The notes: generated by a model not told the origin, from the letters alone. Positions 1,237 to 15,337 are shown, counted from the stretch's first letter. The stretch is DNA of 64,000 nucleotides from Minisyncoccota bacterium (GCA_041389025.1 JAWKSP010000002.1:105279-169278); one strand, 5' to 3'. Made by a program: numbers and translations.

Positions 1237-1258
1237 TTTTGTGGATTTGTCTGTTTTT

Positions 1259-2824
1259 CTACTTCAAGATCGTCTTTACATCATTAATTTCTTTTTCTAT
1301 CAATGTCTCGGATACCTCCAAAGCTTGGTTCAATCCCTCCACCGCTTCTTTCTCATTTTTAGAAAGACGTTTTCGTTTAGTAATAGTATTTATTTGGTCA
1401 TAAATTTCGTCTCTTAAGGCTGAGAATATTTTTTCCATTTGATCCTGTATTTCTCTAGTTTCCTTTCTTAATTTTTCTTCTTTAAGTTTGATTTGTTTTC
1501 GTTCGTACCAAATGTAAATACTTTGTAGAATGATAATTAATATCAGGAAGAAAATCAAAACATTTATTGGCGTAATATAGCTAAGCAAACTCTTATTTTC
1601 CTCGACCTCAAACGGCTTTATCCAGCCAGCCGTTATCAGTACTGCTTTTGTACTTTCGGTTTTGTTTCCGGCCATATCATAGGCGGTGACTTTTACAGTG
1701 TAAGTACCATCTTCAAGCTCCTTTAGTAGATAACCCAACTTTGCTTCATCAGGAGTAACAGTGACTGGCTCCTTATCGGCAATAGTCATTTCATAGTAGT
1801 CAATGCCTGAAGTTTCATCCATTGCTTCAAATTCAATTGTTGGGAATGATGAAGGTGTGGTTCCGGTTTTTACCGCTATGACAAAGGGCTCCGGTGATCT
1901 GGTGTCTATCTGAAGTTTTCTATTCGTTACCGCACCCCAACCTACTTGGTTTTTGAAGTTTACACTTATATACTGCACACCTTCCACCAAATCTTCTTTA
2001 GTTACCCTAAATTCATCTATCGGAGGATCATAAACAACGTTATTATTTAGTTCAGGTTTATTTTCAGCAGAAGTGGCAATTTCTACCGCTACTTCAGTTA
2101 CATCAAACGGTAATGTCCAATTAAACACTCCTTCAGTGCTTGAATACCAAACCTCGGGATCCAAGAAAGCTTGTGAACCTACCTCAGGCGCTCTTGGTGG
2201 ATCTCCAAAAACAATCGCCTCATCATCATTTTCATTTAAACTAGCTGGAGCCGAAGTTTGAGTCGGTACAGGCTCTGGTGTTGGTGCCGGAACCGGAGCC
2301 TGAGCCAAAGAAACGGTATATGAAGCTGGAACACCAGATTTATACACATCGGTTCCTTGTCCGTCTGCAGCCAAAACAGAGGCATCAGAGAAAGTTACTT
2401 TACCATTTCCTTCACTAACTGTTCGCCAAGTGATAGTTACCAAATTTGATGCTGTAGAAAATGGAGTTGGACTTCCACCACCAAAAGAGACAGTACCGGC
2501 ACTATTAGAAAAAGTCGGCTCAACTGTCCAAAGAGAAAAGGCTGAGCCATTTTTGTTTACATTAACTACCGATAAGGTAGCTGGATCGAATTTCAAAGTA
2601 GCTTCAACAGCGTTAATTTTTTGACCAGAGGGCAGAACTTTAACTACAGTAGTAAAAGTTTGTCCTGCTGAGTAGGAACCACTAGCCGGAGAAACCTCCA
2701 AGGTAGCAGCTGATGCAAAGTCAAACCACAGAAAAGACAAAACAACAAAAACAATGACTTTGAGAGAAATTACTGTATTTAAATTTATTTTATCAAAAAT
2801 CATAATTAGACTATTTATTTGCAA
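1259..2824 (-). CDS. Type-I membrane surface protein. Domain order: N-terminal signal/TM, cohesin-like domain, Pro-rich linker (APVPAPTPEPVPTQTSAP), Ig/Fn3-like domains, a single C-terminal TM, then a coiled-coil cytoplasmic tail.
   Basis: The segment ATLEVSPASGSYSAGQTFTTVVKV...INAVEATLKFDPATLSVVNVNKNGSAFSLWTVEPTFSNSAGTVSFGGG...GKVTFSDASVLAADGQGTDV matches the cohesin-domain consensus pattern. The TM is LIFFLILIIILQSIYIWY and the tail is basic and helical. A likely alternative start at Met-8 (2803) removes the 14-bp overlap with the hsp20 gene. Confidence 0.65.
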   Translation of the reverse strand: MQINSLIMIFDKINLNTVISLKVIVFVVLSFLWFDFASAATLEVSPASGSYSAGQTFTTVVKVLPSGQKINAVEATLKFDPATLSVVNVNKNGSAFSLWTVEPTFSNSAGTVSFGGGSPTPFSTASNLVTITWRTVSEGNGKVTFSDASVLAADGQGTDVYKSGVPASYTVSLAQAPVPAPTPEPVPTQTSAPASLNENDDEAIVFGDPPRAPEVGSQAFLDPEVWYSSTEGVFNWTLPFDVTEVAVEIATSAENKPELNNNVVYDPPIDEFRVTKEDLVEGVQYISVNFKNQVGWGAVTNRKLQIDTRSPEPFVIAVKTGTTPSSFPTIEFEAMDETSGIDYYEMTIADKEPVTVTPDEAKLGYLLKELEDGTYTVKVTAYDMAGNKTESTKAVLITAGWIKPFEVEENKSLLSYITPINVLIFFLILIIILQSIYIWYERKQIKLKEEKLRKETREIQDQMEKIFSALRDEIYDQINTITKRKRLSKNEKEAVEGLNQALEVSETLIEKEINDVKTILK

Positions 2825-3281
2825 AAGTTCTTCTTTCTTGTTTTATTTTCAATTTTACTTTTTCCTTCTCGGTTGGTTTTAGTAAAGGTAAAATTAAAAT
2901 TAAGACTCCATTCTTGATTTTTGCTTCCGCTTTTTCAATATTTACACTTTCAGGTAGAATAATTCTTCGATAAAAATCTCCCCAAGTGCATTCTTCAGCA
3001 AAGTACGAGCCGGCTTCTCTTTTTTTTGTAAACACAAGGTACTCTGGCCTAACACGCCTGCCTTCAATCAAAACGATATCAGCATCTCCTTCAATAGACA
3101 CATTTATATCATTCATGTCGGCTCCTGATGCTTGGGCATAAATAATAACCGATCGTTCAGTTTGATAAACATCCACATTTAACTGAGCAACTTTATCGAC
3201 CGCTGTTTCCTCAGAATCAGACTGTAAAGAAGCCTGCTCAGAACGAACTCCTCTGTTTTTTAATCTTTGCAGAAATGACAT
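2811..3281 (-). CDS. Small heat shock protein, Hsp20/alpha-crystallin family.
   Basis: Alpha-crystallin domain motifs: SVIIYAQASGADMNDINVSIEGD..LIEG, and a C-terminal AEAKIKNGVLILILPLLKP (GVL-I-LPK-like). About 156 aa. Confidence 0.8.
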   Translation of the reverse strand: MSFLQRLKNRGVRSEQASLQSDSEETAVDKVAQLNVDVYQTERSVIIYAQASGADMNDINVSIEGDADIVLIEGRRVRPEYLVFTKKREAGSYFAEECTWGDFYRRIILPESVNIEKAEAKIKNGVLILILPLLKPTEKEKVKLKIKQERRTFANK

Positions 3282-3352
3282 ATTCGTTACTTATTATAGT
3301 ACATAGAATTTATATGTTTTGTTTGACTTGGGGATTTGTTTCATTTTCTTCA

Positions 3353-5161
3353 CTAACCGGTCCAATTAAATAAAAGAATCGAAAAGTCGGTTAGATTTAC
3401 TTTTCCGTCACTGTTTAGATCGGCCGTCGTTGGTTTGTCGGCCTTTTGACCAATTCCATAGAATAGATAATCGGAAAAGCCGGCCTTGCTACCATCCGAT
3501 TGCTCAGCTTTTGCTCTGACTTTATACGTACCTGTATTGAAATCAGTAGCATCTAGAGTTGTTTTCCATGCGCCATTTGAGTCAGCTGTAACATTGATAG
3601 TTTTTAAACTTGGAGCTGATTTATCTTTCATGTTTTCAATCGTTACCTCAGAACTAGCCAAGGCGTAACCACTTATCTCAAAAGTTTGACCAGACTGAAC
3701 TGGGTCTGGATCAACTCTTATTGTTGGAGTAACAACAATATTTGAAAGAGAAGTTGTTCTGGCACCGGAAACTGTAAACGAAGTATTGAAGGTTGAAGAC
3801 TTTGTGTCATTTTTATCCAATACATAAACACCAAAGGTGTATACACCTCGGGCTATTTCATCTAGAGTTACAGAAAATATTCCATCTGCATTACCTTTCT
3901 TAGTTGCAACTTCAGTTCCATCGACCAAAGCTACTATAGTTGAATTCGGATAAGCCTTTCCGGAAATAATAACTCTACCATCACCACTTCTATAAGGTCC
4001 TTCGGATGACTCAAAACCACCACCACCGGAACTACCGCTACCGCCACCAGACCCACCACCACCACCACCACCGGAACCTCCAGAACCTGAATCACCACCA
4101 GAAGTTGGTTTTTCGCCGTCTGACGAACCTGATGTTCCTCCACTACCATCACCACTTCCGGTACCGTCATCACCACTTCCGGTACCATCACCTTCAGTTT
4201 CTCCTTCGGTATTTGAAGTTCCGGTTGGAATATCCGTCACTTGAAATTGTATAAGATAGTCATCAATATTAAAGTTTCCTTCATCATCAATACACCTAAC
4301 GTAAAATGATTGAGTGGAGTTTGGTGTGACAGAAACCACTGTAGTGTGGTAAATCAAACCGGTATTGGAAAAACCGTTGATCATAGAAGCATAGTCAGTT
4401 CCCGGAACGGTGTCGTATCGACAGAAAGCAAACTCGTCGGTTTCCAAAAATATTTCCACACTTTGTGTTACACCGGTAACTGTGGAAGATGGAGCTCCGT
4501 TAAAACGGTATGGGGGGATTTCCTCAGTAGTATCAATCGGACCCACTCCAATCTGACTTATCAGTGCGATAACGGGTTTAGCGCTAGCTACCAAACTACC
4601 ATCGTATATGTTTAAAGTCATTTTTTTTGTTCCCACCGTATCCGCATTCACAATCGGAACTATATCCGCCGGCGTAGTGGTAGTGCCGGTTGAGGTACTA
4701 TAAGTAACACTAAAGTTATTTGCCTTTGACGTATGATTGCCAATCATTAATTTTAATTGTGAGTCAGCTGATATTCCACTCGAGGTATTTAAAGTATACT
4801 TGATAAGGCCTGGTGTACCAGAAAAAATCTCTACCCCATCACTACTAGCCGACCGTGTAGCCGAAGAATTTCGCAGTACCTCGTCAACATAAAGTTCCAC
4901 GTTTCGATCAGCTGAAAATGTTGATGTGCCTAACGTTTCAAAACCAGTCGGCGGCACCACTTCAATGTAACTATTTGGTCCAATTCCGGTTTTTAATGTA
5001 AAAGAAATCGTGTGATTTGCAGCTTGGTCAGGAGCAGAGTTAGAAATTACATTTTTATAATTAATTATATTGGCGGCATTGACTTGTTCTGTTGAAAAAA
5101 ATAAGAACAAAAAACCAAAAACCAACCCAAGGAGATAAGTTTTTTTTAAAAACCAGTTCAT
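3353..5161 (-). CDS. Large secreted protein with a signal peptide, Ig-like beta domains, a long Gly/Ser/Asp linker, and a C-terminal dockerin-like calcium-binding repeat.
   Basis: Signal peptide MNWFLKKTYLLGLVFGFLFLFFSTEQVNA. The linker is GTGSGDDGTGSGDGSGGTSGSS...GGGGGGGSGGGSG. The extreme C-terminus TADLNSDGKVNLTDFSILLFNW fits the dockerin type-I repeat (D-x-N-x-D-G-x-V-N-x-x-D). Only one repeat is visible. Confidence 0.65.
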   Translation of the reverse strand: MNWFLKKTYLLGLVFGFLFLFFSTEQVNAANIINYKNVISNSAPDQAANHTISFTLKTGIGPNSYIEVVPPTGFETLGTSTFSADRNVELYVDEVLRNSSATRSASSDGVEIFSGTPGLIKYTLNTSSGISADSQLKLMIGNHTSKANNFSVTYSTSTGTTTTPADIVPIVNADTVGTKKMTLNIYDGSLVASAKPVIALISQIGVGPIDTTEEIPPYRFNGAPSSTVTGVTQSVEIFLETDEFAFCRYDTVPGTDYASMINGFSNTGLIYHTTVVSVTPNSTQSFYVRCIDDEGNFNIDDYLIQFQVTDIPTGTSNTEGETEGDGTGSGDDGTGSGDGSGGTSGSSDGEKPTSGGDSGSGGSGGGGGGGSGGGSGSSGGGGFESSEGPYRSGDGRVIISGKAYPNSTIVALVDGTEVATKKGNADGIFSVTLDEIARGVYTFGVYVLDKNDTKSSTFNTSFTVSGARTTSLSNIVVTPTIRVDPDPVQSGQTFEISGYALASSEVTIENMKDKSAPSLKTINVTADSNGAWKTTLDATDFNTGTYKVRAKAEQSDGSKAGFSDYLFYGIGQKADKPTTADLNSDGKVNLTDFSILLFNWTG

Positions 5162-5229
5162 TTAGATGATTATACATTTAAATGAACTGCAAAATAAGTC
5201 GTGTTACACACAGGAAAAATCACGACAAA

Positions 5230-5900
5230 TAAATTTGCCATAATTTTTGACAACCGATGATTTCAAGTGACAAACCACCGGGACTAAGGTCCGGTGGCTT
5301 CTTAATAGCTGGCGATGCCAGCATCACTTAAAGAGGTTAAATAGAGATGGTTGTTCTAGTTGATTCTTATCGTACTGATGACGTACATAACGTCGTATTA
5401 AGTGTTCGTCTAGTCCGATACTGGAGACAAAGTATCCTCTAGCCCAGAGTGAACCTCTATCATAGAGCTTATCGATGTTTTTAACTTTCTTTTTCATCCA
5501 AGCTGATGATTTACCTTTAATTATCTGCGTTACGTACGATATGGAATATCTAGGTTATGTGAGTAGTATAAGATGAATATGATCGTCTTGTATATTTAAC
5601 TCTATAATCTCCCACTGTTTCCATTTGCATATTTGATTAATAACTCTTGTTACTTCTTGTTTTATCTTTGGTTTATCCAGTACCTTACCTCGGTACTTTG
5701 GTGTCCAGACGATATGATATTTTAGATCGTAGAAACAGTGTGATAATGTTCTAATGGTATGTTTGTGGTATGACATACGTATTATGATATTAAGCGAATA
5801 AGTCCTTCCTTTCGGAATGGACTTATTCGTTATACGACGTTGTCTTTAAACGTACACCCCAGTGAGACTGGGGGTTTTTAGGGTTAATGAACTACCCTAA
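5230..5900 (-). mobile_element. IS200/IS605-family insertion sequence carrying tnpA only, with subterminal hairpins at both ends. Probably decayed.
   Basis: Y1-transposase ORF with HxH (HIHLIL) and the YHIVWTPKYR motif. Right-end hairpins at about 5245-5320 (CCACCGGGAC..GTCCGGTGG; GCTGGC-GAT-GCCAGC). Left-end hairpins at 5797-5835 (CGAATAAGTCC..GGACTTATTCG), 5857-5874 (CCCCAGT-GAG-ACTGGGG) and 5883-5904 (TAGGGT..ACCCTA). Confidence 0.6.
5324..5776 (-). pseudogene. tnpA: IS200-type transposase tnpA (Y1 HUH transposase) interrupted by an in-frame TAA at 5555-5557.
   Basis: N-terminal part (5776..5558) reads MSYHKHTIRTLSHCFYDLKYHIVWTPKYRGKVL...DDHIHLILLT, then TAA. The same frame continues PRYSISYVTQIIKGKSSAWMKKKVKNIDKLYDRGSLWARGYFVSSIGLDEHLIRRYVRHQYDKNQ, which is the conserved C-terminal half of IS200 TnpA. 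The stop sits exactly where a hydrophobic residue is expected. Confidence 0.65.
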
Positions 5901-5928
5901 TGCAGAGCATGCGGGGTAAAGATGGAAT

Positions 5929-7737
5929 CTAATCCAATAAAAAACCTCCGGATTGATGTTGCCACAATTTAGCATATACTCCGTTTGCATCTTTAAGTTC
6001 GGTGTGTTTCCCGTCTTCAATTATTTTCCCTTCTTCCAAAACAATTATTCGGTCCATTTCCCTTAAAGTAGAAAGTCTGTGAGCAATGGCAATTACTGTT
6101 TTCCCTTCCATCAGATTATGAAGAGCTTTTTGTATAAGAATTTCACTTTCACTATCGAGAGCTGAGGTGGCCTCATCTAATATAAGTATTGGAGCGTTTT
6201 TAAGCATTGCTCTAGCTATGGCTACTCGTTGTTTTTGACCACCGGACAATTTCACTCCACGCTCTCCTACCAAAGTATCATAACCCTCCGATAATTTACT
6301 GATAAATTCGTGAGCATGGGCTTGTTTCGCCACTTCGATAATCTCTTCGTCAGTAGCATTTGTATTACCGTAAGCAATATTTTCTCTTATCGTCCTATGA
6401 AACAAAGCCGGTTCTTGTGGTACCACGGCTATATTTTGCCTTAAAGAATCCTGTGTTACTTTTGAAATATCTTGTCCATCGATTTTTATTAAACCAGAAT
6501 CAACGTCATGTTGGCGTAAAAGCAATGACACAAAAGTAGACTTACCAGCTCCGGACGAACCAACCAACCCAACTCTTTGACCACCCTCTATACTTAAGTT
6601 AAAACCTGTAAAAACTTCATTATTCTCAAACTGAAACGACACGTCGTTCCAATCAATTCTTCCATTATTTACCACCATATCTGTTGCATCTTTGACATCC
6701 ACAATTTCGTGATTTACTAGTAAATCATCAAGGGCCTCCTGTAACTCACCAATTGTTTTAGCCATAGCATTAAAAGCTCTACCTATAAATATAAGTGATC
6801 CAGAAATATTAAATATTAAAGCCGCTACCATCACAAAATCACCAGTACTTATTTCTCCTAACGACCACTTGTTAGTAACTAACCAGAAAATACTAAAGGA
6901 AAAAGTAAATAATATAAAAGTATTGATAATTAATAACTTTTCTGTATAAAACCAATTATTTTTATGTGCTATCCTTCGTTTATCAGTTAATTCTTTTAAA
7001 TCATTTATCTCTTGTTCGTACTTAGTATATTGTCTAACTGCACTTATATTTGTTAATCTATCAATTATTCCTCCACCTAGTAAAGTATTAGCCTCTGAAC
7101 TTATTTTTGAAAGCCTAGTTTTCTCAGGAGCAAGTTTTTTATTTGTAAGATAAAGCACAAATATCAAAATTATGAATAAAAAAGATGATGTGCCATCTAC
7201 TGAAAATATAAGTGAAAAAGTAACTAAAAAGCCAACAAATGAAGCTAGTTGGGCCCACAAAAAATCAGGAATAATTTCATCTACAGCTCCTATAATGTTT
7301 CTCAGTTTACTTGAAATTGAACCAGCAAATCTATTCGAGTAATATGAATGACTATGTTTAAAAATATACGAATTAACGGTGTCTACAGCCGTTTTTGCAG
7401 TTTTTGTTGTCCAATTTGCAGCTACAAAACCACTTAAACGATAAGTTGCTTGTATAACAAATAATGTAAGTGGTAATACTACACCCCAAAACATTGCTGA
7501 TTTTGTATCACCTTTTTCTGCAGCATCAACTATAAGTTTAAAAATATAGCTTGTACCAGAACCAACTGAAGAAGCAATTATTACCAAAAAAATAGCCGAA
7601 AAAGCCCAAATCTTATGAGGTTTTGATGAATACACAAAAAACCGCCACGGAGTTTTGGGAATAGTATTTTCTTTTTCGTTTATTGTTTTATTCATAAAGT
7701 AAATTAACGCCTTAATCAGCGCTATTTTAATATACAC
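5929..7737 (-). CDS. ABC exporter, fused permease plus ATPase (MsbA/multidrug type).
   Basis: N-terminal 6-TM domain. Walker A GSSGAGKST, ABC signature LSGGQKQRVAIARA, Walker B ILILDEATSALD. Confidence 0.9.
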   Translation of the reverse strand: MYIKIALIKALIYFMNKTINEKENTIPKTPWRFFVYSSKPHKIWAFSAIFLVIIASSVGSGTSYIFKLIVDAAEKGDTKSAMFWGVVLPLTLFVIQATYRLSGFVAANWTTKTAKTAVDTVNSYIFKHSHSYYSNRFAGSISSKLRNIIGAVDEIIPDFLWAQLASFVGFLVTFSLIFSVDGTSSFLFIILIFVLYLTNKKLAPEKTRLSKISSEANTLLGGGIIDRLTNISAVRQYTKYEQEINDLKELTDKRRIAHKNNWFYTEKLLIINTFILFTFSFSIFWLVTNKWSLGEISTGDFVMVAALIFNISGSLIFIGRAFNAMAKTIGELQEALDDLLVNHEIVDVKDATDMVVNNGRIDWNDVSFQFENNEVFTGFNLSIEGGQRVGLVGSSGAGKSTFVSLLLRQHDVDSGLIKIDGQDISKVTQDSLRQNIAVVPQEPALFHRTIRENIAYGNTNATDEEIIEVAKQAHAHEFISKLSEGYDTLVGERGVKLSGGQKQRVAIARAMLKNAPILILDEATSALDSESEILIQKALHNLMEGKTVIAIAHRLSTLREMDRIIVLEEGKIIEDGKHTELKDANGVYAKLWQHQSGGFLLD

Positions 7738-7793
7738 GTATAAAATAAGTAATTCTTACCAAATTAATTTACTAATACAGTATTTTGAACATT

Positions 7794-8204
7794 TTAAGCC
7801 TCAGTTTTTAAAATAGGACGTGCTCGCAAATAATCCAAAATATAATTAAGAACAATTAGAACCAATAAAATAAACAATATTATACTTAAAATCAAGGTGG
7901 AACGGTCAGTTGCTGAGGCGTTTTGTTCACCTTCAGTATTACCAATATTTACTGCTATTAGTCTATCTTTGGCTTCAACTTCTTGTTCCAACTCCGTAAT
8001 CCTAGCTGTTAGTTGATTTACTTGAGTTGGTGCTACACCAACTCTCACTCCTACTGCTTGCGCCAAATAATCTTGTGTTCCAGTGGATAAAGTTCTTGTT
8101 TTTTCAGAAATAATCCCACTATCAAATACCAACAGGAAAGCAAATACCACCACTGCTATCCGTAGAAAACTATGATAAGTAGAATGCTCTATGCTATTTT
8201 TCAT
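7794..8204 (-). CDS. Small bitopic membrane protein with an N-terminal TM, a coiled-coil middle region, a C-terminal TM and a basic tail. Function unknown.
   Basis: Tightly packed between the surface-protein genes and the ABC exporter. Hydrophobic segments AVVVFAFLLVF and LILSIILFILLVLIVLNYIL. Confidence 0.5.
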   Translation of the reverse strand: MKNSIEHSTYHSFLRIAVVVFAFLLVFDSGIISEKTRTLSTGTQDYLAQAVGVRVGVAPTQVNQLTARITELEQEVEAKDRLIAVNIGNTEGEQNASATDRSTLILSIILFILLVLIVLNYILDYLRARPILKTEA

Positions 8205-8223
8205 TAGTACTATTTTACCACTA

Positions 8224-9321
8224 TTAAGAGAATAATAAGAGTAAAATTATCATCAAAAGTGCCGTGATAACCAACATAGTAACAAACACCAACAAAACCG
8301 GGAATTGTGTATTCTTATGTCGTCGACTAACAAGACGTCTAGTCGAACCTCCGGTCATGACAGCTACTGTTCTTTTAATATAAATTTTAACCCCAAAATA
8401 CACTACTAGGAAAAATACGAGTAGACCAACCAGAGCCGGACCAACTATTTTCATTGGTAAAACCCAAAAAGTAACTGTACTGGTCATGGTTTTCATAGCT
8501 CCGGCATCGCCATATACAGCACTTAAAACAGCTTCATATCGTCCAAAACCAGGTGTCTCGTCTTGCCAATTTATTTCATAGTCTCTGACGGTCGGTCCGT
8601 TTTTAGTCATTGGAAATACCCCAGCTCCGTTCTCATTAAAGGTTATATTAGCTACTTGTTTTCCAAACATATTTGTCACTTCCAACGGTCCGATTGGCTT
8701 TACCAAAGTATTACCTTCATTTTCAATCCTGACTAAAAAATTTACATCAATACTCGAGTGTATATACTTTTCAGTTGAAAACTGTCTTATTTGTGCGGAC
8801 TCTACAACCTCTCCAGCGATGCGCATGCTTATTATATTTGCCACCTCATAACCGATACTGGCTCCACTAGAACGCATTTCAGGAGGTTCTACCGAAACCA
8901 CAATTGCACCAAAGTGTCCACCGGGAGTAGCGTCTTCCGGTGCCTGTAGGACAAAGGGTACAGCTCGTGCTTCTCCAGCTGGTATAAACACAGAGTCTTG
9001 CTCTAAGGTAATCCATTCACTAAGTTCATATCCGCTACGCTCTGTTTTTGAGTTTGCAAAAACTGGAACGCCACCCGGAGCAACATCAACGATATCTCTT
9101 CTTGATAAATAAAAAGTCTGATCGATACCACTTAGGTTACTAACTGAAACAGAAAAAGATCTGGTTTCACCCGGCTCCAACTTATCAGTTATACTAGCCG
9201 GTTTTATACCAACACCAGCTTCCTCTTGTGCGCTTACAATACTAATAAATGAAACAAATAATAAAAAAATAATTACCGCCAACCTAAATGTAATAGTGGC
9301 AAAATGATGTGCAAAATTCAT
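8224..9321 (-). CDS. Cell-surface protein with signal peptide, Ig-like body, a C-terminal TM anchor and a basic tail. The architecture resembles DUF916/DUF3324 proteins of WxL loci (inference).
   Basis: Signal peptide ...ISIVSAQEE. Beta-rich body GIKPASITDKLEPGETRSFSVSVSNLSG. C-terminal anchor LVGLLVFFLVVYFGVKIYIKRTVAV followed by RRLVSRRHK. Confidence 0.45.
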   Translation of the reverse strand: MNFAHHFATITFRLAVIIFLLFVSFISIVSAQEEAGVGIKPASITDKLEPGETRSFSVSVSNLSGIDQTFYLSRRDIVDVAPGGVPVFANSKTERSGYELSEWITLEQDSVFIPAGEARAVPFVLQAPEDATPGGHFGAIVVSVEPPEMRSSGASIGYEVANIISMRIAGEVVESAQIRQFSTEKYIHSSIDVNFLVRIENEGNTLVKPIGPLEVTNMFGKQVANITFNENGAGVFPMTKNGPTVRDYEINWQDETPGFGRYEAVLSAVYGDAGAMKTMTSTVTFWVLPMKIVGPALVGLLVFFLVVYFGVKIYIKRTVAVMTGGSTRRLVSRRHKNTQFPVLLVFVTMLVITALLMIILLLLFS

Positions 9322-9438
9322 AATTAAAACACATATATAATATCATTTGACTGTATAAAAAAATAAAACAAATTAACAGTTTACCAAATAAAAAACCACC
9401 AATAATATGGTGGTTTTTTATTTGGTAAATGAAATTTA

Positions 9439-10524
9439 CTAGAAAGTTGGTGTAGCAATATACATAAGTGTTGCTGTATAGTCGTCAGCTGCTTCCTGAA
9501 GCGGTGTCACTTCAATTTGGTAGCCAACTTTTGCCAAACCGTAGTCTTGTGTAGTTCCGTCAGACGGACCGTTGTGTGAAAAAATCTGACGTGGTGTAGT
9601 ACTTGCCGCGACCCATCGATCCCCGCCTGTGCCTACATTGAACTCATTGGCATTCAAGTCTGAGTCATCAGAAGTAAGACCCCAGTGTCCCCATGTATTC
9701 TCATCCAGCAAAGAATCTCCGGGTGACTGCCATGCTGCAGGTGTATCTACATAAGTTCCGTCAGTAAATCCGTCAATATCGGCACCAGTTGATGATTGCA
9801 AGTTACCGTCCTGTTCTACAGTAACAACAAATCCATTAATAGCGTTGGTTGTAACTCTAAGCTCTTGTCCAAGAGTGTATACAGTGTCTGATGAAAGTAC
9901 ACCGAACGGTATGGTAGTTGTACCAGTAGTTCCGGTGGTACTAGCGTTATTAACTGAGGTAGAAGTTGCCAAACCTGAAATTGTAAAGTCAAAAGTGGTA
10001 TCAATCACAGCACTGACTGTTACATAATCTACAATTGCTACTCTTGTCTGACCACTATCTGATGCTGTGGTAACGGTAAATTCATAAGATTGAATTGAAG
10101 CTGGGTTTGTCACCACACCATCAGCTATAACAATTCTCACCTCTTCTCCAGCAGCCGCAGCGACGTTATCAAAAGAGACATCCTGTCCAACCGCCGAAAA
10201 GTTTCCAATTGTTTCCGGAGCACCTCCCTCAACCGTCACAGTTAGGTTTCCAGATACTAGAGTGTTTACTCCAGTGAAGCCGGTTGGGAAATTAACATTT
10301 ACAGTATCGCCTGTTCCTAGTGATGAACCGGTAGGAATAGTAAATTTGATATCATGACCGGAAGTTACACTTGGTCCTGAGTCGGTTAATGTGTTACTAA
10401 CTTCTGTTAGGTTAGCTGCTTGTGCGGTCGAGTAAGCTCCGAGTGACCAGAGTACGACAGCGCACGCAACGAGCATCGCGACTACCCGGTGCGTAAAGCC
10501 AACTTTTGTTGGTATTACGTACAT
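9439..10524 (-). CDS. Secreted beta-rich surface protein with a Thr-rich segment (TTGTTGTTT). The C-terminal region is WxL-domain-like (inference).
   Basis: Signal peptide ending AYSTAQA. C-terminal motifs NTWGHWGLTSDD and DYTATLMYIATPTF resemble the two conserved WxL motifs (W-x-L ... Y-t-x-t-L-t-W-t-L-t-x-x-P) with W replaced by Y in the second. Confidence 0.4.
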   Translation of the reverse strand: MYVIPTKVGFTHRVVAMLVACAVVLWSLGAYSTAQAANLTEVSNTLTDSGPSVTSGHDIKFTIPTGSSLGTGDTVNVNFPTGFTGVNTLVSGNLTVTVEGGAPETIGNFSAVGQDVSFDNVAAAAGEEVRIVIADGVVTNPASIQSYEFTVTTASDSGQTRVAIVDYVTVSAVIDTTFDFTISGLATSTSVNNASTTGTTGTTTIPFGVLSSDTVYTLGQELRVTTNAINGFVVTVEQDGNLQSSTGADIDGFTDGTYVDTPAAWQSPGDSLLDENTWGHWGLTSDDSDLNANEFNVGTGGDRWVAASTTPRQIFSHNGPSDGTTQDYGLAKVGYQIEVTPLQEAADDYTATLMYIATPTF

Positions 10525-10852
10525 GTTTATTTATTTATTATTTTTACTAAATAACTGAAGTCATTTTTTCATTTGATAGAGAATGAAATAGCGACTAGTC
10601 GGTTGAAATTTTTTCTGTGGAGAGACATTTAAAAAAATTTTGTTTGAAAAGTAAGCCAAAATTTTTAATGTCAACCTCAACCGTCTGAGACCATTATAAT
10701 TTTAATAAGACGTTTTGTCTGAAATCTTATGTTGATAACTTGTAAAGAACAAGACAATATTATTAAATTTAACCTTATTTTTAAATTTGTTTTTAAATTT
10801 TAAGAGACTTACTTTTACAACTTTGTTAAGTACTAATGTCTGTTTTATTTTT

Positions 10853-12133
10853 CTAATGTACAATTTTTATTTTTTGCCAATCAGTAGTGTAAGCAGGTGA
10901 AATACGGTCTTTTTTGTTTAGCCAAATTCTTTTTTTACGATCAGGTAAGCTCCCTAACCTCAACATATCTTGCCTGTTTTTTTGGTTTACTGAAAAGAGT
11001 AAGTTGGTCAGTTCCGCCTTATTTTTAGTATTATCAGGAATTGGGAATAATGAATTTGTTTTTTCCTGTTCAACCACCAATCCAGATAACATAACCCCAG
11101 CTTTTTTATACTGAATAGAAGGTTTGTAATTTATTTCAAGTAAATTTATTGCTTCTTTTGTTAAAGTAAATAAATCTCTAGTTGACTCATTTAAAATAAC
11201 TTCTAATTTAGAATTGAGTATAAGGGATTTATTATTAAAACTGGGTTTAATACTTATTCGCAAAATTTTTGCTTCTAATTTGGTTGCATACAAGGTACTG
11301 ACACATTTAAAAACGTGGTATTTTATAGCTTCTTTTAAATCATTTATGTCATTTGTAGATTGACTAAAAGAACGTGAGTTCATAATACTTTTTTGTAAAT
11401 CTTTCTTAAAATTAATCGGAAAAACTATCTCTCCCATAAGCTCGTCTTGCAGCCTAACACCAAAAACCCCAAACCAGTCATTGAGTTGACGTTTTGAGAC
11501 ATTAAATAAATCTTTTACTGTTACTAAACCATAATCATTAAACATCCTTACCTTATCTTGACCAACTCCCCACAACTCTGAAAGTTTAATCTTCTCAGAT
11601 CTTTGTTTCCAGGTCTTCATCGACCAAACTTCTACTCCAGTTTTTGTCTTTTTAGAAATCTTGTTTACATATTTAGCTTGTGTCTTTGATGAAGCTACGC
11701 CAATGGAGACCGGAACGCCTACGTGTCTTTCCACCTTATTTTTTACTCTAATCATTTCTTTAAAATCAAAATCTGTTTTAAAAAAACACTCATCAATTGA
11801 ATATCTTTCTACCTTACCCACTTCACCTTCTACGGTTACAAAAACACGCTTTGCTATATCTTTATATAAAGCAAAGTTAGCTGGAAAAGTTACTATTTTT
11901 CTGTCCTTTATTATGTCTTTTATATGGAAATAAGGGACACCCATTGCTATACCCATGTCTTTTACTTCCTGAGATCGTGCTACCACACAACCTTCATCAC
12001 TAGAAAGTACTAGAACTGGTTTTTCTCTTAAATCTGGTCTAAACAACCGCTCACAAGAAACAAAGAAATTATTACAATCTAAAACACCGATTTTATCGGT
12101 GTTCGCTTCTAATATTTCTCTATTATCTAGCAT
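10853..12133 (-). CDS. umuC: Y-family translesion DNA polymerase, UmuC-like.
   Basis: LDCNNFFVSCERLFRPDLREKPVLVLSSDEGCVVARS aligns with E. coli UmuC CDVNAFYASCETVFRPDLWGKPVVVLSNNDGCVIARN. Other matches: YSIDECFF (YSIDEAF) and YKKAGVML (YQKAGVML). Confidence 0.9.
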   Translation of the reverse strand: MLDNREILEANTDKIGVLDCNNFFVSCERLFRPDLREKPVLVLSSDEGCVVARSQEVKDMGIAMGVPYFHIKDIIKDRKIVTFPANFALYKDIAKRVFVTVEGEVGKVERYSIDECFFKTDFDFKEMIRVKNKVERHVGVPVSIGVASSKTQAKYVNKISKKTKTGVEVWSMKTWKQRSEKIKLSELWGVGQDKVRMFNDYGLVTVKDLFNVSKRQLNDWFGVFGVRLQDELMGEIVFPINFKKDLQKSIMNSRSFSQSTNDINDLKEAIKYHVFKCVSTLYATKLEAKILRISIKPSFNNKSLILNSKLEVILNESTRDLFTLTKEAINLLEINYKPSIQYKKAGVMLSGLVVEQEKTNSLFPIPDNTKNKAELTNLLFSVNQKNRQDMLRLGSLPDRKKRIWLNKKDRISPAYTTDWQKIKIVH

Positions 12134-12158
12134 TAGCTATATTGTAACCTGTCTCTAT

Positions 12159-13346
12159 TTATCTCCAAATTTTCTTATCTTCTTCACCGTCAATTTTAAA
12201 ATATGCCACTCCAGCTAAATTATATTTTTCAGCTAATTCTATTTTTTCTTTTGCTGCTTTTGCATCAGAATAGGTAATGAAACGTACAGTCACTTCTTGA
12301 CCAGTCATATTAGCGAACAATAGTGCTCTAGCGGCATTTTCAAACCCTTCTGGTGTTCCTTCGGGTACCGGCAAAGCTGTTAAAACTCTATAAGGTGAAG
12401 TGTCTGGAAAGTAACTGATAACCGCCTCCCCACCGGCAGTTCGACCAATTGGTGAATCGTATTTTTCAGCCAACTCCTTAATTCTTGGTATATTTAAAGA
12501 AGCTACTTTAATGTAATCTCTATACCAATTCGGAGAAACTTTTACATCCCAAGCTCGACCATAAGTCGGTACTCCTAAAAAAACTTTTTCTTCCGGAAAA
12601 TCTTCCAAAGCTAAGACGAGAACCTTCTCTACCCAATCAATATCAGCCACCGGCATATACGGTACACCAGCTCTTTCTTCATTAAGCTTTATATCAGCTC
12701 GTTGCTGATCATAGGCCATTATTTCAATTCGATCACAATAACGTCCAATTTTGTTGTAATTATTGGCATATTCTATTTTTTCCGGCACTTCTCGCCAACG
12801 AGATTCTGTAGGAGTCCGTGCTTCTATTGCGCAAGTTAGTTCTTTAGAACCTAAAGCTTGATTTAATTCACGTAAAAAATCTGAAAAATAATCTATAGTT
12901 TCAGACTTTTTTTGTTCATAATCAATGTTTATCCCAGCAAAATCATTATCATCTACCAAGTCTTCAATTTCTTTTATATGTTGTTTTCTTTTCTTTTTAT
13001 CACTTAAGACCTCATGAATAGCTTCACCATCAAACCAAGCAATAGTAGGAATAACTTCTACTCTTTTCTTTTTAGCTTGCCGAAACAAATCTTTCCATTC
13101 CTTAGAATCTAAGTCAGTTTTTGCTACGATTTCTTCCTTCTCATTAATTTCATAGACAAATGGGTAAATAGTATCTAATTTATTAAGATTCTTCTTGGTA
13201 CTTGCTATACCTTCCTTATCTTGCCACCACGGTATCCAGCCAGCTGTCTCCAAGCCTTTAGCGCTAGCTGTTGGTAAAATACTAAAAGATACTAATAAAA
13301 TTAGCAAAAAAGCCGTAGTTTGTTTTAAAATCACTTTATTATTCAT
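12159..13346 (-). CDS. Secreted glycoside hydrolase family 18-like protein (chitinase or chitin-binding type). The catalytic motif is variant: [10 protein letters not shown].
   Basis: Signal peptide ...ILPTASA. GWIPWW is an N-terminal GH18 motif. AGINIDYE corresponds to DGxDxDWE with the first Asp replaced by Asn. [10 protein letters not shown] matches the GH18 LGxPxYGR motif. Confidence 0.65.
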
Positions 13347-13391
13347 ATTTTTTAGTTATTAATCTTTAATGACGTTTTCTTACCCTAAAAC

Positions 13392-13868
13392 TTACCTAAA
13401 ATCACGCACACTAGCAGTTACTACACCCCAAACAAAACAATCGTCATTTTCGTTGATAATAATTGGCTTATAGTCTTTGTTGGCTGATACAAGCTCAGTT
13501 TGATTGTTTTTTATCTTTAGATACTTTACCACCATTTCTCCATAAACAGCAGCAATAACTATTTTTCCCGAAACTAAAGGCAATGAACGGTCTACTACTA
13601 AGATATCACCAGAAAAGATACCAGCCCCTTCCATTGAATCTCCTTCAATTCTGACAAAGAAAGTTGAATTTGGGTTATTTACCAGCAATTCATTTAAATC
13701 TAAAGTTTTTTCAACCAAGTCATCTCCCATCATCGGAAAGCCAGCCGCAGGACGTGAGCTATACAAGGGTAAATCAATTTTAAAATCAGCTGAATAAGTC
13801 ATTACAGCGGTGACTTTTAAAGTTTTTTCCATACTCTTAATTTTAGCATTAAAATTAAGTAAACTCAT
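13392..13868 (-). CDS. umuD: UmuD, an S24 LexA-like self-cleaving peptidase and translesion-polymerase accessory subunit.
   Basis: AAGFP (Ala-Gly cleavage site), RIEGDSMEGAGIFSGDILVVDRS, and IVIAAVYGEMVVKYL align closely with E. coli UmuD. Confidence 0.85.
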   Translation of the reverse strand: MSLLNFNAKIKSMEKTLKVTAVMTYSADFKIDLPLYSSRPAAGFPMMGDDLVEKTLDLNELLVNNPNSTFFVRIEGDSMEGAGIFSGDILVVDRSLPLVSGKIVIAAVYGEMVVKYLKIKNNQTELVSANKDYKPIIINENDDCFVWGVVTASVRDFR

Positions 13869-14136
13869 TAAGAGTTTAGATTTTTTAAATACTTTATTTT
13901 TTAAAGTTATTTTATAATATATACTTATATATACATTTGTGATATAATCGTACTCTCGCTAAATAGCTTGGCTATGAAGCGAGATATTTTGTTTATTAAA
14001 AAGGAGATATTATGACAAAAAAGTTCTTTTAGTAGTACTGGTTGTTTTTTTACTTTTTATAAACCACACAAAAGCCGGACTAATTGCTGTAAATGTTCTC
14101 TATGAACACACCCTAGCAACTAACGAAGGCTTAGTT

Positions 14137-14352
14137 ATGGCGATCGGAATAACACAAGATAGTAATTTTGATTTTCCTAATTTTGATCATACCGACCTTA
14201 TACATACCGTAAAGGATGTACAGACCGGTAGAACTTGGGATTTTCATTCTGTTTCTAACAACAACGTACACACAGTAGATGAACCTGAAACTTGGTTTCT
14301 GTTACTAACTAGTATGTTGATTGTGTTATTTATTATCACAAGAAAAGTTTAA
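14137..14352 (+). CDS. Small protein with a C-terminal sorting-signal-like tail (DEPETW, then a hydrophobic stretch, then RKV). The reading frame stays open upstream to an RBS-bearing ATG at 14012 that is out of frame at an A6 run.
   Basis: AAAGGAG-N5-ATG at 14012 gives MTKKFF then a stop. The +2 frame from 14014 reads DKKVLLVVLVVFLLFINHTKAGLIAVNV... continuously into the 14137 ORF. This suggests a frameshift or sequencing error in AAAAAA at 14017-14022. Confidence 0.35.
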   Translation: MAIGITQDSNFDFPNFDHTDLIHTVKDVQTGRTWDFHSVSNNNVHTVDEPETWFLLLTSMLIVLFIITRKV

Positions 14353-14443
14353 GCAACCATGAGGGCAATCCTTTTATTTTAGAGGATTGTCCTCTTTTTT
14401 ATATTTTTATTACACTGAAAGGCTAAAGTACGAACAGGTTTAA

Positions 14444-15337
14444 TTAGTAACCATAATTAAACCGACTAAATACCATCATTTCCTGACAAGGAGTTTTATA
14501 GGTATCTATATCCTTTAATTTGGAACTTTCTTCGTTCCTAAAATAATACTGAGCTCTTTTCTTCATTATTTCGCGTTGTTCTCGCATTTCTTCACGACTA
14601 TGAAAATCATCATAAAACCAAGGAAATACTCCACAAACATGTATTTTGGGTGGTTTAATTCCCAAAACTTGCCCCACCACTTTCACATTTTGACCGGTAC
14701 CAAGCCTTTTTATATCATCGTCATCCAATTCAGTAGTAACTAAACCCCAGCGAGTATTATATATATCGACAAACAAAGCTTCTGAATTATCATTATTCAT
14801 TTCATAAACCTGACCGATTATGCGACCAGCCACTGGGCTTTGCCAAAGTCTAAGCTCAATTTTCTCCTGTGAATTATATAAAGAAATATAATGCCCTAAC
14901 CACCTATCTGCACTAAAACCGATTCCACTAGTTTGCAACAAGACACCACCGACAAAACTAACTCCCACACTTAAACCAACTACCACCAAAAGCGAATAAC
15001 GATAACCTCTCTTAGTATGCCTTATGTTGTAAGTAGCTAAAATAATCATTAAAAATAGTAAAAAAAACCATAAAAAAGGTAAGACCTCTACCATAAAAGT
15101 GAGGAAATTATCGTGAGTGGCTTCATATAAGGCATATTGACGATAACCAATCACAAACAAAGTAATAGCTACAGCTATCGCTCCTACTCCAGTACTTAGA
15201 AACCAGAAAAACCAGAAAATTATTTCTTTAACTAGAAAAAAAGCCTTTGGTCGGGGATTTAAATCGTTCTCTTTTAAACGCTCCAAGACACTGGTTTTTA
15301 AGTCTTTCTCTGGATTTTTACCATTCATACTTTTCAT
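14444..15337 (-). CDS. Membrane protein, putative anti-sigma factor. Its start overlaps the stop of the ECF sigma gene by 4 bp.
   Basis: ATGA overlap with the upstream sigma gene. Multiple TM helices. No recognisable enzymatic motif. Confidence 0.45.
   Translation of the reverse strand: MKSMNGKNPEKDLKTSVLERLKENDLNPRPKAFFLVKEIIFWFFWFLSTGVGAIAVAITLFVIGYRQYALYEATHDNFLTFMVEVLPFLWFFLLFLMIILATYNIRHTKRGYRYSLLVVVGLSVGVSFVGGVLLQTSGIGFSADRWLGHYISLYNSQEKIELRLWQSPVAGRIIGQVYEMNNDNSEALFVDIYNTRWGLVTTELDDDDIKRLGTGQNVKVVGQVLGIKPPKIHVCGVFPWFYDDFHSREEMREQREIMKKRAQYYFRNEESSKLKDIDTYKTPCQEMMVFSRFNYGY

What the first reader, a model, noticed from the sequence alone, without database searches (positions are those of the whole stretch)
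5929..10524. WxL-like, DUF916-like and small membrane protein genes followed by an ABC exporter in one operon
Four tightly packed minus-strand genes. The first (9439..10524) encodes a secreted protein whose C-terminus carries two motifs reminiscent of WxL domains (NTWGHWGL and ...YTATLMYIATPTF). The second (8224..9321) has a signal peptide, an Ig-like body, a C-terminal TM and a basic tail, like the DUF916/DUF3324 partners of WxL loci. The third is a small bitopic protein. The fourth is an MsbA-type ABC exporter. From established knowledge, WxL (csc) clusters are a Firmicutes feature for non-covalent peptidoglycan-attached surface complexes. A divergent version linked to an exporter in this AT-rich genome would be notable.
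Basis: inference. Interest (0 to 1): 0.55.

Follow-up and report, generated by a model that had tools for sequence, protein, structure and literature searches.

The report
Minimal pilin-chaperone locus in Paceibacteria
This locus most likely encodes a stripped-down version of the recently described 'Pam' pilus of ultra-small CPR bacteria (one fibre subunit, one membrane-anchored chaperone, one small membrane protein), and its chaperone proves to be a true relative of the WxL-interacting proteins of Gram-positive bacteria, while the neighbouring ABC exporter is only an occasional neighbour.

Summary
The four minus-strand genes are present as described, in a Paceibacteria/Nomurabacteria-like CPR genome.

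**Protein 2 (8224-9321)** is a WxLIP (DUF916) homologue:
- Pfam PF06030 hits 43 of 43 orthologues.
- hhalign against Firmicute WxLIPs gives 96% probability, E 4.7e-9, across both beta-domains.
- The best PDB fold matches are E. faecium WxLIP, followed by chaperone-usher pilus chaperones.

**Protein 1 (9439-10524)** is not a recognisable WxL protein:
- Pfam WxL hits 0 of 70 family members.
- The solved WxL chain is absent from the top fold hits.
- 53 of 70 members match NCBIfam 'CPR_Pam_pilin_C' (best E 7.6e-11, all below the curated cut-off).
- It has the Pam pilin layout: a variable Ig N-domain, a conserved linker strand and a conserved C-domain.

**Synteny.** Pilin, chaperone and a small membrane protein form a triad kept in 39 of 44 related loci. 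The ABC exporter is present in 11 of 22 and directly adjacent in 3.

**Best reading.** This is an usher-less donor-strand fibre of the Pam type, in minimal form. Polymerisation and the roles of the chaperone and protein 3 are inferred, not shown.

**WxL domain versus pilin C-domain.** The relationship is suggestive only: a co-linear alignment, P about 0.02.

**Verdict.** This is a new variant of a known kind.

The parts
10693..10721 (-). Promoter-like site (CAGACA-17-TATAAT) in the 330-nt AT-rich region upstream of the pilin gene
   Evidence: Consensus scan, 10 of 12 matches. The number of such sites in the region is no higher than in shuffled sequence, so this is weak evidence.
9439..10524 (-). 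Protein 1: secreted two-domain pilin-like protein (361 aa), a distant member of the CPR Pam pilin superfamily
   Evidence: ORF. AF2 model pLDDT 83.5. 53 of 70 family members match NF058581 CPR_Pam_pilin_C, best E 7.6e-11, with full-length coverage of the model. The window protein itself scores only 18.2 bits.
10417..10524 (-). Sec signal peptide of protein 1 (aa 1-36, cleavage after AQA), unusually conserved among close orthologues
   Evidence: Alignment A1: M17-A22, G29 and A34-L39 are invariant. The cleavage site is read from the sequence, not predicted by a tool.
10045..10413 (-). Pilin N-terminal Ig-like beta-sandwich domain (aa 38-160), BslA/YweA/YcnI-like; the variable, presumably exposed part
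9973..10044 (-). Conserved inter-domain linker (aa 161-184, RVAIVDYVTVSAVIDTTFDFTISG) with alternating hydrophobic residues: candidate donor strand
   Evidence: Among the most conserved segments across 70 diverse members. Residues 165-177 have no assigned secondary structure in the monomer model. The preprint reports that in PamA/PamB the donated linker is the most conserved region. The donor role is inferred.
9442..9972 (-). Pilin C-terminal beta domain (aa 185-361): candidate strand-accepting domain, homologous to the Pam pilin C-domain; ends in the conserved DDYxxTLxYIATPTF
   Evidence: Divergent family members align to NF058581 positions 3-148 of 148. Conservation peaks at aa 221-240, 271-285 and 331-361. 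There is a weak co-linear hhalign match to the WxL domain (P about 0.02).
9381..9428 (-). Intrinsic-terminator-like hairpin plus T-run directly after the pilin stop codon
   Evidence: 20-bp stem with 6 G-C pairs; read directly. It would give a high pilin-to-chaperone transcript ratio. That effect is inferred.
8224..9321 (-). Protein 2: WxLIP-like, PapD-like membrane-anchored chaperone candidate (365 aa)
   Evidence: AF2 model pLDDT 85.9.
8818..9216 (-). Protein 2 domain 1 (aa 36-168), DUF916/WxLIP_PGBD-like beta-sandwich
   Evidence: PF06030 match at aa 47-142. Aligned to EfmWxLIP1 residues 27-145.
8818..8889 (-). Protein 2 loop plus strand (aa 145-168, EPPEMRSSGASIGYEVANIISMRIAG): candidate complementing strand
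   Evidence: The most conserved window of the family. Residues 145-158 have no assigned secondary structure and lie in the model's lower-confidence blocks (pLDDT 78 for aa 141-150, 72 for aa 151-160). The segment aligns with the EfmWxLIP1 loop. AF2 modelling in PMC10599100 predicts that a long WxLIP hairpin loop becomes a strand that completes the WxL sandwich. That the two loops are the same, and the strand-donating role here, are both inferred.
8461..8796 (-). Protein 2 domain 2 (aa 176-287), second Ig-like domain, positionally equivalent to DUF3324
   Evidence: The hhalign alignment against WxLIPs spans 24-281, and Foldseek aligns 270 columns to 9i1y. There is no Pfam PF11797 hit.
8230..8454 (-). 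Protein 2 membrane hairpin: TM helix, basic cytoplasmic loop (GSTRRLVSRRHKNTQFP), second TM helix
   Evidence: Helices 290-324 and 340-364 in the AF2 model. Conserved in 43 orthologues.
7794..8204 (-). Protein 3: small membrane protein (136 aa), N- and C-terminal TM segments flanking about 70 residues with a conserved VVGVxVGVAP(N/T)xVNQLTARITELE motif; third member of the conserved triad
   Evidence: Conserved in five relatives. It follows the chaperone in 39 of 44 loci. No family match. A role as anchor or terminator is speculative.
5929..7737 (-). ABC exporter half-transporter (likely start at 7695): a facultative neighbour, not a core part of the system
   Evidence: ABC_membrane plus ABC_tran domains; MsbA-related at 358 bits, below every equivalog cut-off. 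Present in 11 of 22 related loci and adjacent in 3.

Best explanation
The core of the locus is a three-gene surface-fibre module of a Paceibacteria-type CPR bacterium. It is a minimal, divergent form of the Pam pilus system.

**Shown.**
- Protein 1 is a Sec-exported two-domain protein whose C-domain is homologous to the Pam pilin C-domain.
- Protein 2 is a homologue of the WxL-interacting proteins. It has two beta-sandwich domains that resemble chaperone-usher chaperones, and it is held in the membrane by a helical hairpin.
- Pilin, chaperone and protein 3 form a conserved triad.

**Inferred.**
- After export, the incomplete C-domain of protein 1 is capped by the conserved loop and strand of protein 2 (aa 145-168). 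This is donor-strand complementation at the membrane surface.
- The conserved linker strand of the next pilin (aa 161-184) then displaces the chaperone. Subunits join head to tail into a thin fibre without an usher or ATP.
- The variable BslA-like N-domain faces outward and makes the contacts with a host or surface.
- The terminator after the pilin gene keeps pilin in excess over chaperone.

**Speculative.** Protein 3 supplies the last strand or a platform that anchors the fibre base in the membrane.

The ABC exporter is an unrelated or accessory neighbour.
For: **Pilin.**
- 53 of 70 diverse family members hit NF058581 CPR_Pam_pilin_C (best E 7.6e-11). The alignments cover positions 3-148 of 148 over the whole C-domain.
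- The AF2 model shows an N-terminal sandwich, a linker and a C-domain.
- The N-domain is variable while the linker and C-domain are conserved. The preprint reports the same pattern for PamA/PamB.
- Whole-chain Foldseek hits are two-domain adhesins and pilins, including FimH, PapG, CsuE and EbpB.

**Chaperone.**
- PF06030 hits 43 of 43 orthologues.
- Foldseek ranks WxLIP 9i25 and 9i1y first (E 7e-11, TMt 0.5). CfaA, CsuC, Caf1M, CupB2 and YadV chaperones and RbmA follow.
- hhalign against WxLIPs gives 96% probability, E 4.7e-9.
- The C-terminal membrane anchor matches what is described for PamC/PamD.
- AF2 modelling in PMC10599100 predicts that WxLIP completes the WxL sandwich with a strand.

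**Context.**
- The triad is present in 39 of 44 loci.
- Expanded loci have several pilins and chaperones, plus a protein of more than 1000 aa ending in the pilin C-domain.
- A terminator hairpin follows the pilin gene.
Against: - No fibre has been seen in this lineage.
- No multimer model could be run, so strand exchange is inferred from homology and conservation only.
- The window protein scores just 18.2 bits on the Pam pilin model (cut-off 55), and no family member reaches the cut-off.
- No PamT, PamE or PamR equivalents are present.
- The mature pilin has no cysteine, whereas PamA/PamB have 2-3 paired cysteines (sequence; preprint).
- I could not compare protein 2 directly with PamC/PamD, or protein 1 with the PamA/PamB structures. 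They are not in the PDB copy I searched, by sequence or by fold.
- Ig-like folds give many non-specific fold hits.
Confidence: 0.62

Rival explanations
1. A WxL-type surface complex. Protein 1 is a monomeric surface protein whose C-domain is a very divergent WxL domain. It is held non-covalently on the wall or membrane by the WxLIP homologue (protein 2), with no polymerisation.
For: - Protein 2 is a true WxLIP homologue.
- The gene order small WxL, WxLIP, small anchored protein recurs in Firmicute loci and mirrors pilin, protein 2, protein 3.
- The C-domain is about 180 aa, the same size as a WxL domain (160-190 aa).
- hhalign gives a co-linear 160-column alignment with matching landmark motifs, including the C-terminal Y..tLt[WY].l..P.
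- That score is exceeded by 0 of 150 column shuffles and 3 of 120 block shuffles.
Against: - Pfam WxL hits 0 of 70 members.
- hhalign probability is only 2.5-3.3%, P 0.013-0.019, and a deeper profile did not improve it.
- The family does match the Pam pilin model significantly.
- The strongly conserved linker strand is unexplained in a monomer model.
- This rival is not fully exclusive. WxL systems may themselves use strand complementation.
Confidence: 0.2
2. A BslA-like coat or S-layer-type protein. Protein 1 forms a two-dimensional hydrophobic or protective layer on the cell through its BslA/YweA-like N-domain, and protein 2 acts as its membrane tether.
For: - One family member hits Pfam BslA weakly (E 0.0066).
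- The same N-domain heads another surface protein in the window.
Against: - The BslA-like part is the least conserved part of the family, whereas the linker and C-domain are the conserved, family-defining parts.
- The C-domain is homologous to a pilin domain solved in filaments.
- BslA needs no dedicated chaperone (established knowledge).
Confidence: 0.08
3. An ABC-exporter-coupled secretion operon. The MsbA-type exporter exports or matures proteins 1-3 or a linked product, making the four genes one functional unit.
For: The genes are adjacent and co-oriented in this window. An ABC exporter lies downstream of the triad in 11 of 22 relatives.
Against: - Proteins 1 and 2 carry Sec signal peptides.
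- The exporter has no C39 peptidase domain, and no membrane-fusion partner gene was seen in the ORF list around it.
- The exporter is absent from 11 of 22 loci. In most others it is separated from the triad by 2-4 FGE-sulfatase-like genes.
- A hairpin and a gap of about 98 nt precede it.
Confidence: 0.05

Closest known systems
Pam pilus system of Candidatus Mycosynbacter amalyticus (Saccharimonadia), Troman et al. 2026, bioRxiv 10.64898/2026.03.03.709456; NCBIfam NF058581 and NF058579
   Same: [quoted passage not shown]
- The C-domain is homologous by sequence at family level.
- Conservation is concentrated in the linker and the C-domain.
- A PapD-like two-domain chaperone with a C-terminal membrane anchor is encoded next to the pilin.
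- There is no usher and no dedicated secretion machine.
- It occurs in CPR bacteria.
   Different: - It comes from a different CPR class (Paceibacteria-type; the preprint names neither Paceibacteria nor Parcubacteria).
- It has one pilin and one chaperone, not PamA/B/E/T plus PamC/D/R.
- A small two-TM protein takes the place of the RbmA-like PamR.
- The chaperone has a TM hairpin where PamC/PamD have a single helix.
- The mature pilin has no cysteine.
- Scores are below NCBI's cut-off, so the automated annotation that uses these models would not name it a Pam pilin.
- The ATP-synthase neighbourhood the preprint describes was not seen in the genes examined around the triad (window 1-16000; flanks).
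WxL / csc clusters of Lactobacillales and Bacillales (small WxL, large WxL, WxLIP = DUF916 + DUF3324 + TM, small LPXTG protein); PDB 9i25, 9i1y; Hassan et al. 2023
   Same: - Protein 2 is a WxLIP homologue by sequence, by profile and by fold.
- The gene order is the same: the partner protein gene comes first and the WxLIP gene second.
- A small anchored protein is present in the cluster.
- The partner's C-terminal domain has the same size and a similar C-terminal motif.
- WxLIP is predicted to complete its partner's sandwich with a strand.
   Different: - Protein 1 does not match the WxL model and has no Trp in the aligned motifs.
- There is no LPXTG protein and no sortase link.
- The conserved WxLIP motif NQIDKxxxYFDLK is absent from protein 2.
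- Pfam does not detect DUF3324 in protein 2.
- The organism is a CPR bacterium, not a Firmicute.
- WxL proteins are described as peptidoglycan-bound monomers, not fibres.
Chaperone-usher pili (Pap/Fim; class 5 CFA/I CfaA-CfaB; archaic Csu)
   Same: Protein 2 has the fold of a two-domain chaperone (CfaA E 1.7e-8, TMt 0.47). The inferred mechanism is donor-strand complementation and exchange, with an incomplete Ig-like acceptor domain in the subunit.
   Different: - The cell is monoderm, with no outer-membrane usher.
- The chaperone is membrane-anchored.
- The donor strand is internal (an inter-domain linker), not an N-terminal extension.
- The subunit has two domains.
- No sequence similarity was detected.
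BslA / YweA / YcnI Ig-like domains

Membership tests
WxL domain proteins (Pfam PF13731) | Significant match to the WxL domain profile | tested here: not met
   0 of 70 diverse family members match at E<=1. There is no hit for the window protein.
WxL domain proteins (Pfam PF13731) | Two Trp-x-Leu motifs at the proximal and distal positions of a 160-190 aa C-terminal domain | tested here: not met
   In the hhalign alignment the proximal motif aligns with G-F-V-V-T-V and the distal one with L-M-Y-I-A-T-P. Neither aligned position has Trp. The literal W-G-L in NTWGHWGL is not at the aligned position. The domain length (about 180 aa) does fit.
WxL domain proteins (Pfam PF13731) | Profile-profile or fold similarity to known WxL domains | tested here: inconclusive
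WxL domain proteins (Pfam PF13731) | Encoded next to a WxLIP (DUF916/DUF3324) gene | tested here: met
   Protein 2 lies immediately downstream and is a WxLIP homologue.
WxLIP (DUF916 + DUF3324 + TM helix) | DUF916 / WxLIP_PGBD (PF06030) domain | tested here: met
   The window protein scores E 6.3e-6, 26.7 bits, against a gathering score of 27.3. 43 of 43 orthologues match, best E 3e-9. About a third of orthologues carry a precomputed PF06030 call.
WxLIP (DUF916 + DUF3324 + TM helix) | Second Ig-like domain of the DUF3324 / WxLIP_HBD type (PF11797) | tested here: inconclusive
   No PF11797 hit in 43 members. However, hhalign against WxLIPs aligns 239 columns through the second domain, and Foldseek aligns 270 columns to 9i1y.
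WxLIP (DUF916 + DUF3324 + TM helix) | Signal peptide and C-terminal membrane anchor | tested here: met
   The AF2 model and alignment show an N-terminal hydrophobic helix and C-terminal helices 290-324 and 340-364. The second TM helix is an addition.
WxLIP (DUF916 + DUF3324 + TM helix) | Fold similarity to the solved WxLIP | tested here: met
   9i25_C and 9i1y are the top three PDB hits, E 7e-11 to 2e-10, TMt 0.49-0.50. By sequence profile they are the only significant PDB hits.
WxLIP (DUF916 + DUF3324 + TM helix) | Conserved N-terminal NQIDKxxxYFDLK motif (Hassan et al. 2023) | tested here: not met
   The consensus of 43 orthologues at that position reads AGVGIxPAxIxExxxPGE. The motif is described.
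Pam pilus system (CPR) | Pilin C-domain matching NF058581 at or above the curated cut-off (55 bits) | tested here: not met
   The window protein scores 18.2 bits. The best family member scores 42.3 bits. Below the cut-off the match is significant and full-length in many members (53 of 70).
Pam pilus system (CPR) | Two-domain pilin: N-terminal beta-sandwich, single linker strand, C-terminal open Ig-like domain | tested here: met
   AF2 model: strands 40-164, linker 165-184, C-domain 216-359.
Pam pilus system (CPR) | Linker and C-domain are the most conserved regions | tested here: met
   Per-column information over 70 diverse members, compared with the preprint's statement.
Pam pilus system (CPR) | Adjacent PapD/FimC-like chaperone with a C-terminal TM helix | tested here: met
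   described for PamC/PamD.
Pam pilus system (CPR) | Accessory subunits (tip PamT, PamE, RbmA-like anchor PamR) | tested here: not met
   The window has only one pilin-family ORF and one chaperone-family ORF. Protein 3 has no family match.
Pam pilus system (CPR) | Assembly into helical filaments by donor-strand exchange | not testable with these tools
   This needs multimer modelling or microscopy.
TasA / archaeal bundling pili (Peptidase_M73, PF12389) | Match to PF12389; jelly-roll subunit | tested here: not met
   PF12389 is not among the families listed for the 70 members scanned (the first 25 of 41 are shown). TasA is not among the fold hits.
Type I / ABC-dependent secretion | Substrate without a Sec signal; exporter with a C39 domain or a membrane-fusion partner; strict co-occurrence | tested here: not met
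   Sec-type signal peptides. The exporter has only ABC_membrane and ABC_tran domains. It co-occurs in 11 of 22 loci.

The most novel reading that the evidence does not exclude
The WxL clusters of Firmicutes and the Pam-type pili of CPR bacteria may be two branches of one ancient, usher-less donor-strand system of monoderm envelopes.

On this reading:
- WxLIP and the Pam chaperones are the same chaperone family.
- The WxL domain is a derived or truncated pilin C-domain.
- This Paceibacteria triad (pilin, chaperone, small membrane anchor) is the minimal ancestral-like form.

It would follow that 'peptidoglycan-binding' WxL proteins are held, and perhaps chained, by strand complementation.
Probability: 0.3. 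Interest if true: 0.75.

Novelty: new variant of a known kind. Interest (0 to 1): 0.55.

Why it matters
Pam pili were described only in 2026. The preprint places them mainly in Saccharimonadia and Microgenomatia, and the fibres are thought to make first contact between these ultra-small parasites and their hosts.

- **A minimal form in another CPR branch.** A three-gene form is conserved across Paceibacteria-type genomes, with 54 species-level loci and 630 sequence clusters. This widens the system to another large CPR branch and offers the simplest version to reconstitute.
- **A link to Gram-positive biology.** The chaperone is a demonstrable homologue of WxLIP/DUF916. This ties the CPR system to the WxL clusters of enterococci, listeriae and lactobacilli, which are linked to virulence and adhesion. 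I found no paper in the searched library that makes this connection.
- **A mechanistic hypothesis for WxL proteins.** The link suggests that WxL proteins are mounted on the surface by strand complementation from a membrane-anchored chaperone.
- **Annotation.** Proteins 1 and 3 have no significant Pfam or NCBIfam assignment. Protein 2 has only a just-below-threshold DUF916 hit, and its identical NCBI entry is named 'hypothetical protein'.

Tried and rejected
- **Pfam WxL on protein 1 and 70 relatives:** no hit.
- **Sequence searches of protein 1 and its profiles against PDB chains:** nothing. No link to the solved WxL chain or to any deposited Pam pilin could be made that way.
- **TasA/ABP-type fibre:** rejected. 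PF12389 is not among the families listed, and there are no fold hits.
- **ABC-coupled secretion:** rejected on synteny and signal peptides.
- **The search for related loci with the diverse alignment:** failed because no stretch was conserved enough. The closer alignment worked.
- **Seeding a protein search with the EfmWxLIP1 fragment:** returned only gene fragments. One of them still led to an enterococcal WxL locus.
- **Enlarging the WxL profile** from 14 to 38 domains and the pilin C-domain profile to 264 sequences: the hhalign score did not improve.
- **Plain HMM searches in both directions:** weak.
- **Cluster-member look-up for taxonomy of divergent members:** almost uninformative. One Falkowbacteria name came back.
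- **NCBIfam on the protein 2 family:** found no Pam chaperone model.

Full report
**1. Observation**

The four minus-strand ORFs exist exactly as listed: protein 1 at 9439-10524 (361 aa), protein 2 at 8224-9321 (365 aa), protein 3 at 7794-8204 (136 aa) and an ABC exporter at 5929-7737. Both quoted motifs are present.

The window has 31-43% G+C. Its best homologues are from Candidatus Nomurabacteria and Paceibacterota MAGs. Protein 2 is identical to an NCBI entry named as a hypothetical protein from a Paceibacterota MAG.

Refinements:
- Protein 2 ends in a TM helix, a basic loop and a second TM helix.
- The ABC gene most likely starts at the ATG at 7695, because orthologues are 588-590 aa.
- The 117-nt gap after the pilin gene holds a 20-bp terminator-like hairpin with a T-run at 9428-9381.

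**2. Protein 2 is a WxLIP homologue with a pilus-chaperone fold**

- Pfam gives PF06030 (DUF916/WxLIP_PGBD) at E 6.3e-6, just under the gathering score. All 43 orthologues tested match it, best E 3e-9. None matches DUF3324.
- The AF2 model (pLDDT 85.9) shows two beta-sandwich domains and a C-terminal helical hairpin.
- Foldseek against the PDB ranks the solved E. faecium WxLIP first (9i25_C, 9i1y; E 7e-11, TMt 0.5). Chaperone-usher chaperones follow (CfaA, CsuC, Caf1M, CupB2, YadV), along with RbmA.
- The family profile finds EfmWxLIP1 as the only significant PDB sequence (E 2e-4).
- I fetched 17 Firmicute WxL loci. A local hhalign of six WxLIPs against the protein 2 family gave 96% probability, E 4.7e-9, over 239 columns spanning both domains.
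- The most conserved stretch of protein 2 is aa 145-168. Its loop part (aa 145-158) has no assigned secondary structure and lies in the model's lower-confidence blocks (pLDDT 72-78). It aligns with the EfmWxLIP1 loop. Hassan et al. 2023 predict that a long WxLIP hairpin loop becomes a strand that completes the WxL sandwich. That the two loops are the same is my inference.

**3. Protein 1 is not a recognisable WxL protein; it belongs with the Pam pilins**

- Pfam WxL hits none of 70 diverse family members at E<=1.
- NCBIfam NF058581, 'CPR_Pam_pilin_C', hits 53 of 70, best E 7.6e-11. In divergent members the alignment covers the whole model over the whole C-domain.
- All scores are below NCBI's 55-bit cut-off. 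The window protein scores only 18.2 bits.
- The model behind that name comes from a 2026 preprint. PamA and PamB of Ca. Mycosynbacter amalyticus are two-domain pilins with an N-terminal sandwich, a donated linker strand and an open Ig-like C-domain. [quoted passage not shown]
- Protein 1 fits this layout. The AF2 model (pLDDT 83.5) has an N-domain (aa 40-164), a linker and a C-domain.
- Across 70 diverse members the N-domain is variable, and the linker (aa 161-180) and the C-domain are the most conserved parts. The preprint reports the same for PamA/PamB.
- Residues 165-177 of the linker have alternating hydrophobic residues but no assigned secondary structure in the monomer model. That is what a donated strand would look like.

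**4. Synteny**

- In five contigs and 54 species-representative loci, pilin, chaperone and the small membrane protein form a triad in 39 of 44 loci that have enough downstream sequence.
- Of 22 triad loci with at least 4.3 kb further downstream, 11 have an ABC exporter (3 directly adjacent), 15 have tandem FGE-sulfatase-like genes, and 18 have the dockerin-bearing protein.
- The ABC exporter is therefore a facultative neighbour. It has no C39 domain, and no membrane-fusion partner gene was seen nearby. Proteins 1 and 2 carry Sec signal peptides.
- The window holds one pilin and one chaperone only.
- Two relatives have expanded clusters with several pilins and chaperones, plus a protein of more than 1000 aa that ends in the pilin C-domain. 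Both a tip adhesin and a 'long WxL' protein look like this.

**5. Are the WxL domain and the pilin C-domain related?**

- The context says possibly. The partner proteins are homologous, the gene order is the same, the domain sizes are similar, and the C-termini resemble each other (FTADLTWNLVAGP against YTATLMYIATP).
- hhalign of 14 and then 38 WxL domains against the pilin C-domain gives scores of 21.8-22.6, P 0.013-0.019. Control comparisons score 9.8-17.7.
- The relaxed alignment is co-linear over 160 columns, with five landmark motifs in order.
- 0 of 150 column-shuffled profiles and 3 of 120 block-shuffled profiles reach the observed score.
- The solved WxL chain does not appear among the top fold hits.
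- I rate this as suggestive, not shown.

**6. Mechanism**

Shown:
- the homologies in sections 2 and 3;
- the domain layout;
- the conservation pattern;
- the triad.

Inferred:
- the chaperone caps the pilin C-domain at the membrane;
- the linker of the next subunit displaces the chaperone, building a thin fibre with no usher;
- the variable N-domain is the exposed, contact-making face;
- the terminator sets a high pilin-to-chaperone ratio.

Speculative: protein 3 anchors or terminates the fibre. It has two TM segments and a conserved VVGVxVGVAP strand-like motif followed by a helix.

**7. Novelty**

The Pam system is known (preprint, NCBIfam models). This locus is a divergent, minimal form in a CPR class that the preprint does not name, and it falls below the curated cut-offs. 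The homology of its chaperone to WxLIP/DUF916 is not mentioned in the preprint. I found it in no paper in the library.

I class the locus as a new variant of a known kind, of moderate interest.

Noticed in passing
window 5324-5776 (-): An IS200-like Y1 transposase is split into two ORFs: 5555-5776 matches the N-terminal half and 5324-5497 the C-terminal part of Pfam PF01797. This is a disrupted insertion sequence between the ABC gene and the dockerin-protein gene.
   Followed up: partly
window 3353-5161 (-) and 1259-2824 (-): A possible cohesin-dockerin surface pair.
- The 602-aa secreted protein has an N-domain homologous to the pilin N-domain (E 4.7e-15), a Gly/Ser-rich linker, Big_6 repeats and a dockerin-like C-terminus.
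- The 521-aa protein has a cohesin-like N-domain, fn3, a TM segment and a coiled-coil tail.
- The dockerin protein is a steadier neighbour of the triad (18 of 22 loci) than the ABC exporter.
   Followed up: partly
L002 10699-13203, L003 10681-14102, L004 10700-13188 and 12 further related loci: Two to four tandem FGE-sulfatase-like (PF03781) genes sit between the triad and the ABC or dockerin genes in 15 of 22 relatives. They are absent from this window. They might modify the pilin, since PamA carries a modification on Ser356 according to the preprint, but this was not examined.
   Followed up: no
L046 1-8708 and L047 1-10116: Expanded clusters in two MAGs (one labelled Paceibacterota, one labelled Saccharibacteria). 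Each has two or three pilin paralogues, two or three chaperone paralogues, and in L047 a protein of more than 1016 aa ending in the Pam-type C-domain (31 bits). This is closer to the multi-subunit pam operon.
   Followed up: partly
window 10853-12133, 12159-13346, 13392-13868 (-): A Y-family polymerase (UmuC/IMS) and an S24 LexA/UmuD-like peptidase are separated by a secreted GH18 chitinase-like gene. Relatives keep the same neighbourhood, with a NUDIX gene added.
   Followed up: no
window 14444-15975 (-): An ECF-type sigma-70 factor (15334-15975) overlaps the start of a 297-aa multi-TM protein with no family match (14444-15337). This is probably a sigma/anti-sigma pair. It is conserved upstream of the pilin locus in relatives (L001, L003).
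   Followed up: no
L002 1-2463, L004 1-2958, L005 2690-3340: Relatives carry a sortase gene next to very large SpaA/SdrD_B-like surface proteins a few kb upstream of the triad. These genomes may therefore make sortase-dependent fibres as well.
   Followed up: no
window 10417-10524 (-): The pilin signal peptide is almost invariant among close orthologues (MFVIPTxVGFTHRVVAMLVACA...AQAANL). That is more conserved than most of the mature N-domain and unusual for a Sec signal. It may mean dedicated processing or a regulatory role for the 5' coding region.
   Followed up: no
L060 3475-3792; L063 3204-3515; L065 4565-4930; L067 4374-4703: Firmicute WxL clusters carry a small (about 100-120 aa) LPXTG-type anchored protein. 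In L060 it contains a short strand-like segment (GTITFYD). It could be the functional counterpart of protein 3 as an anchor that donates a strand. This is pure conjecture.
   Followed up: no
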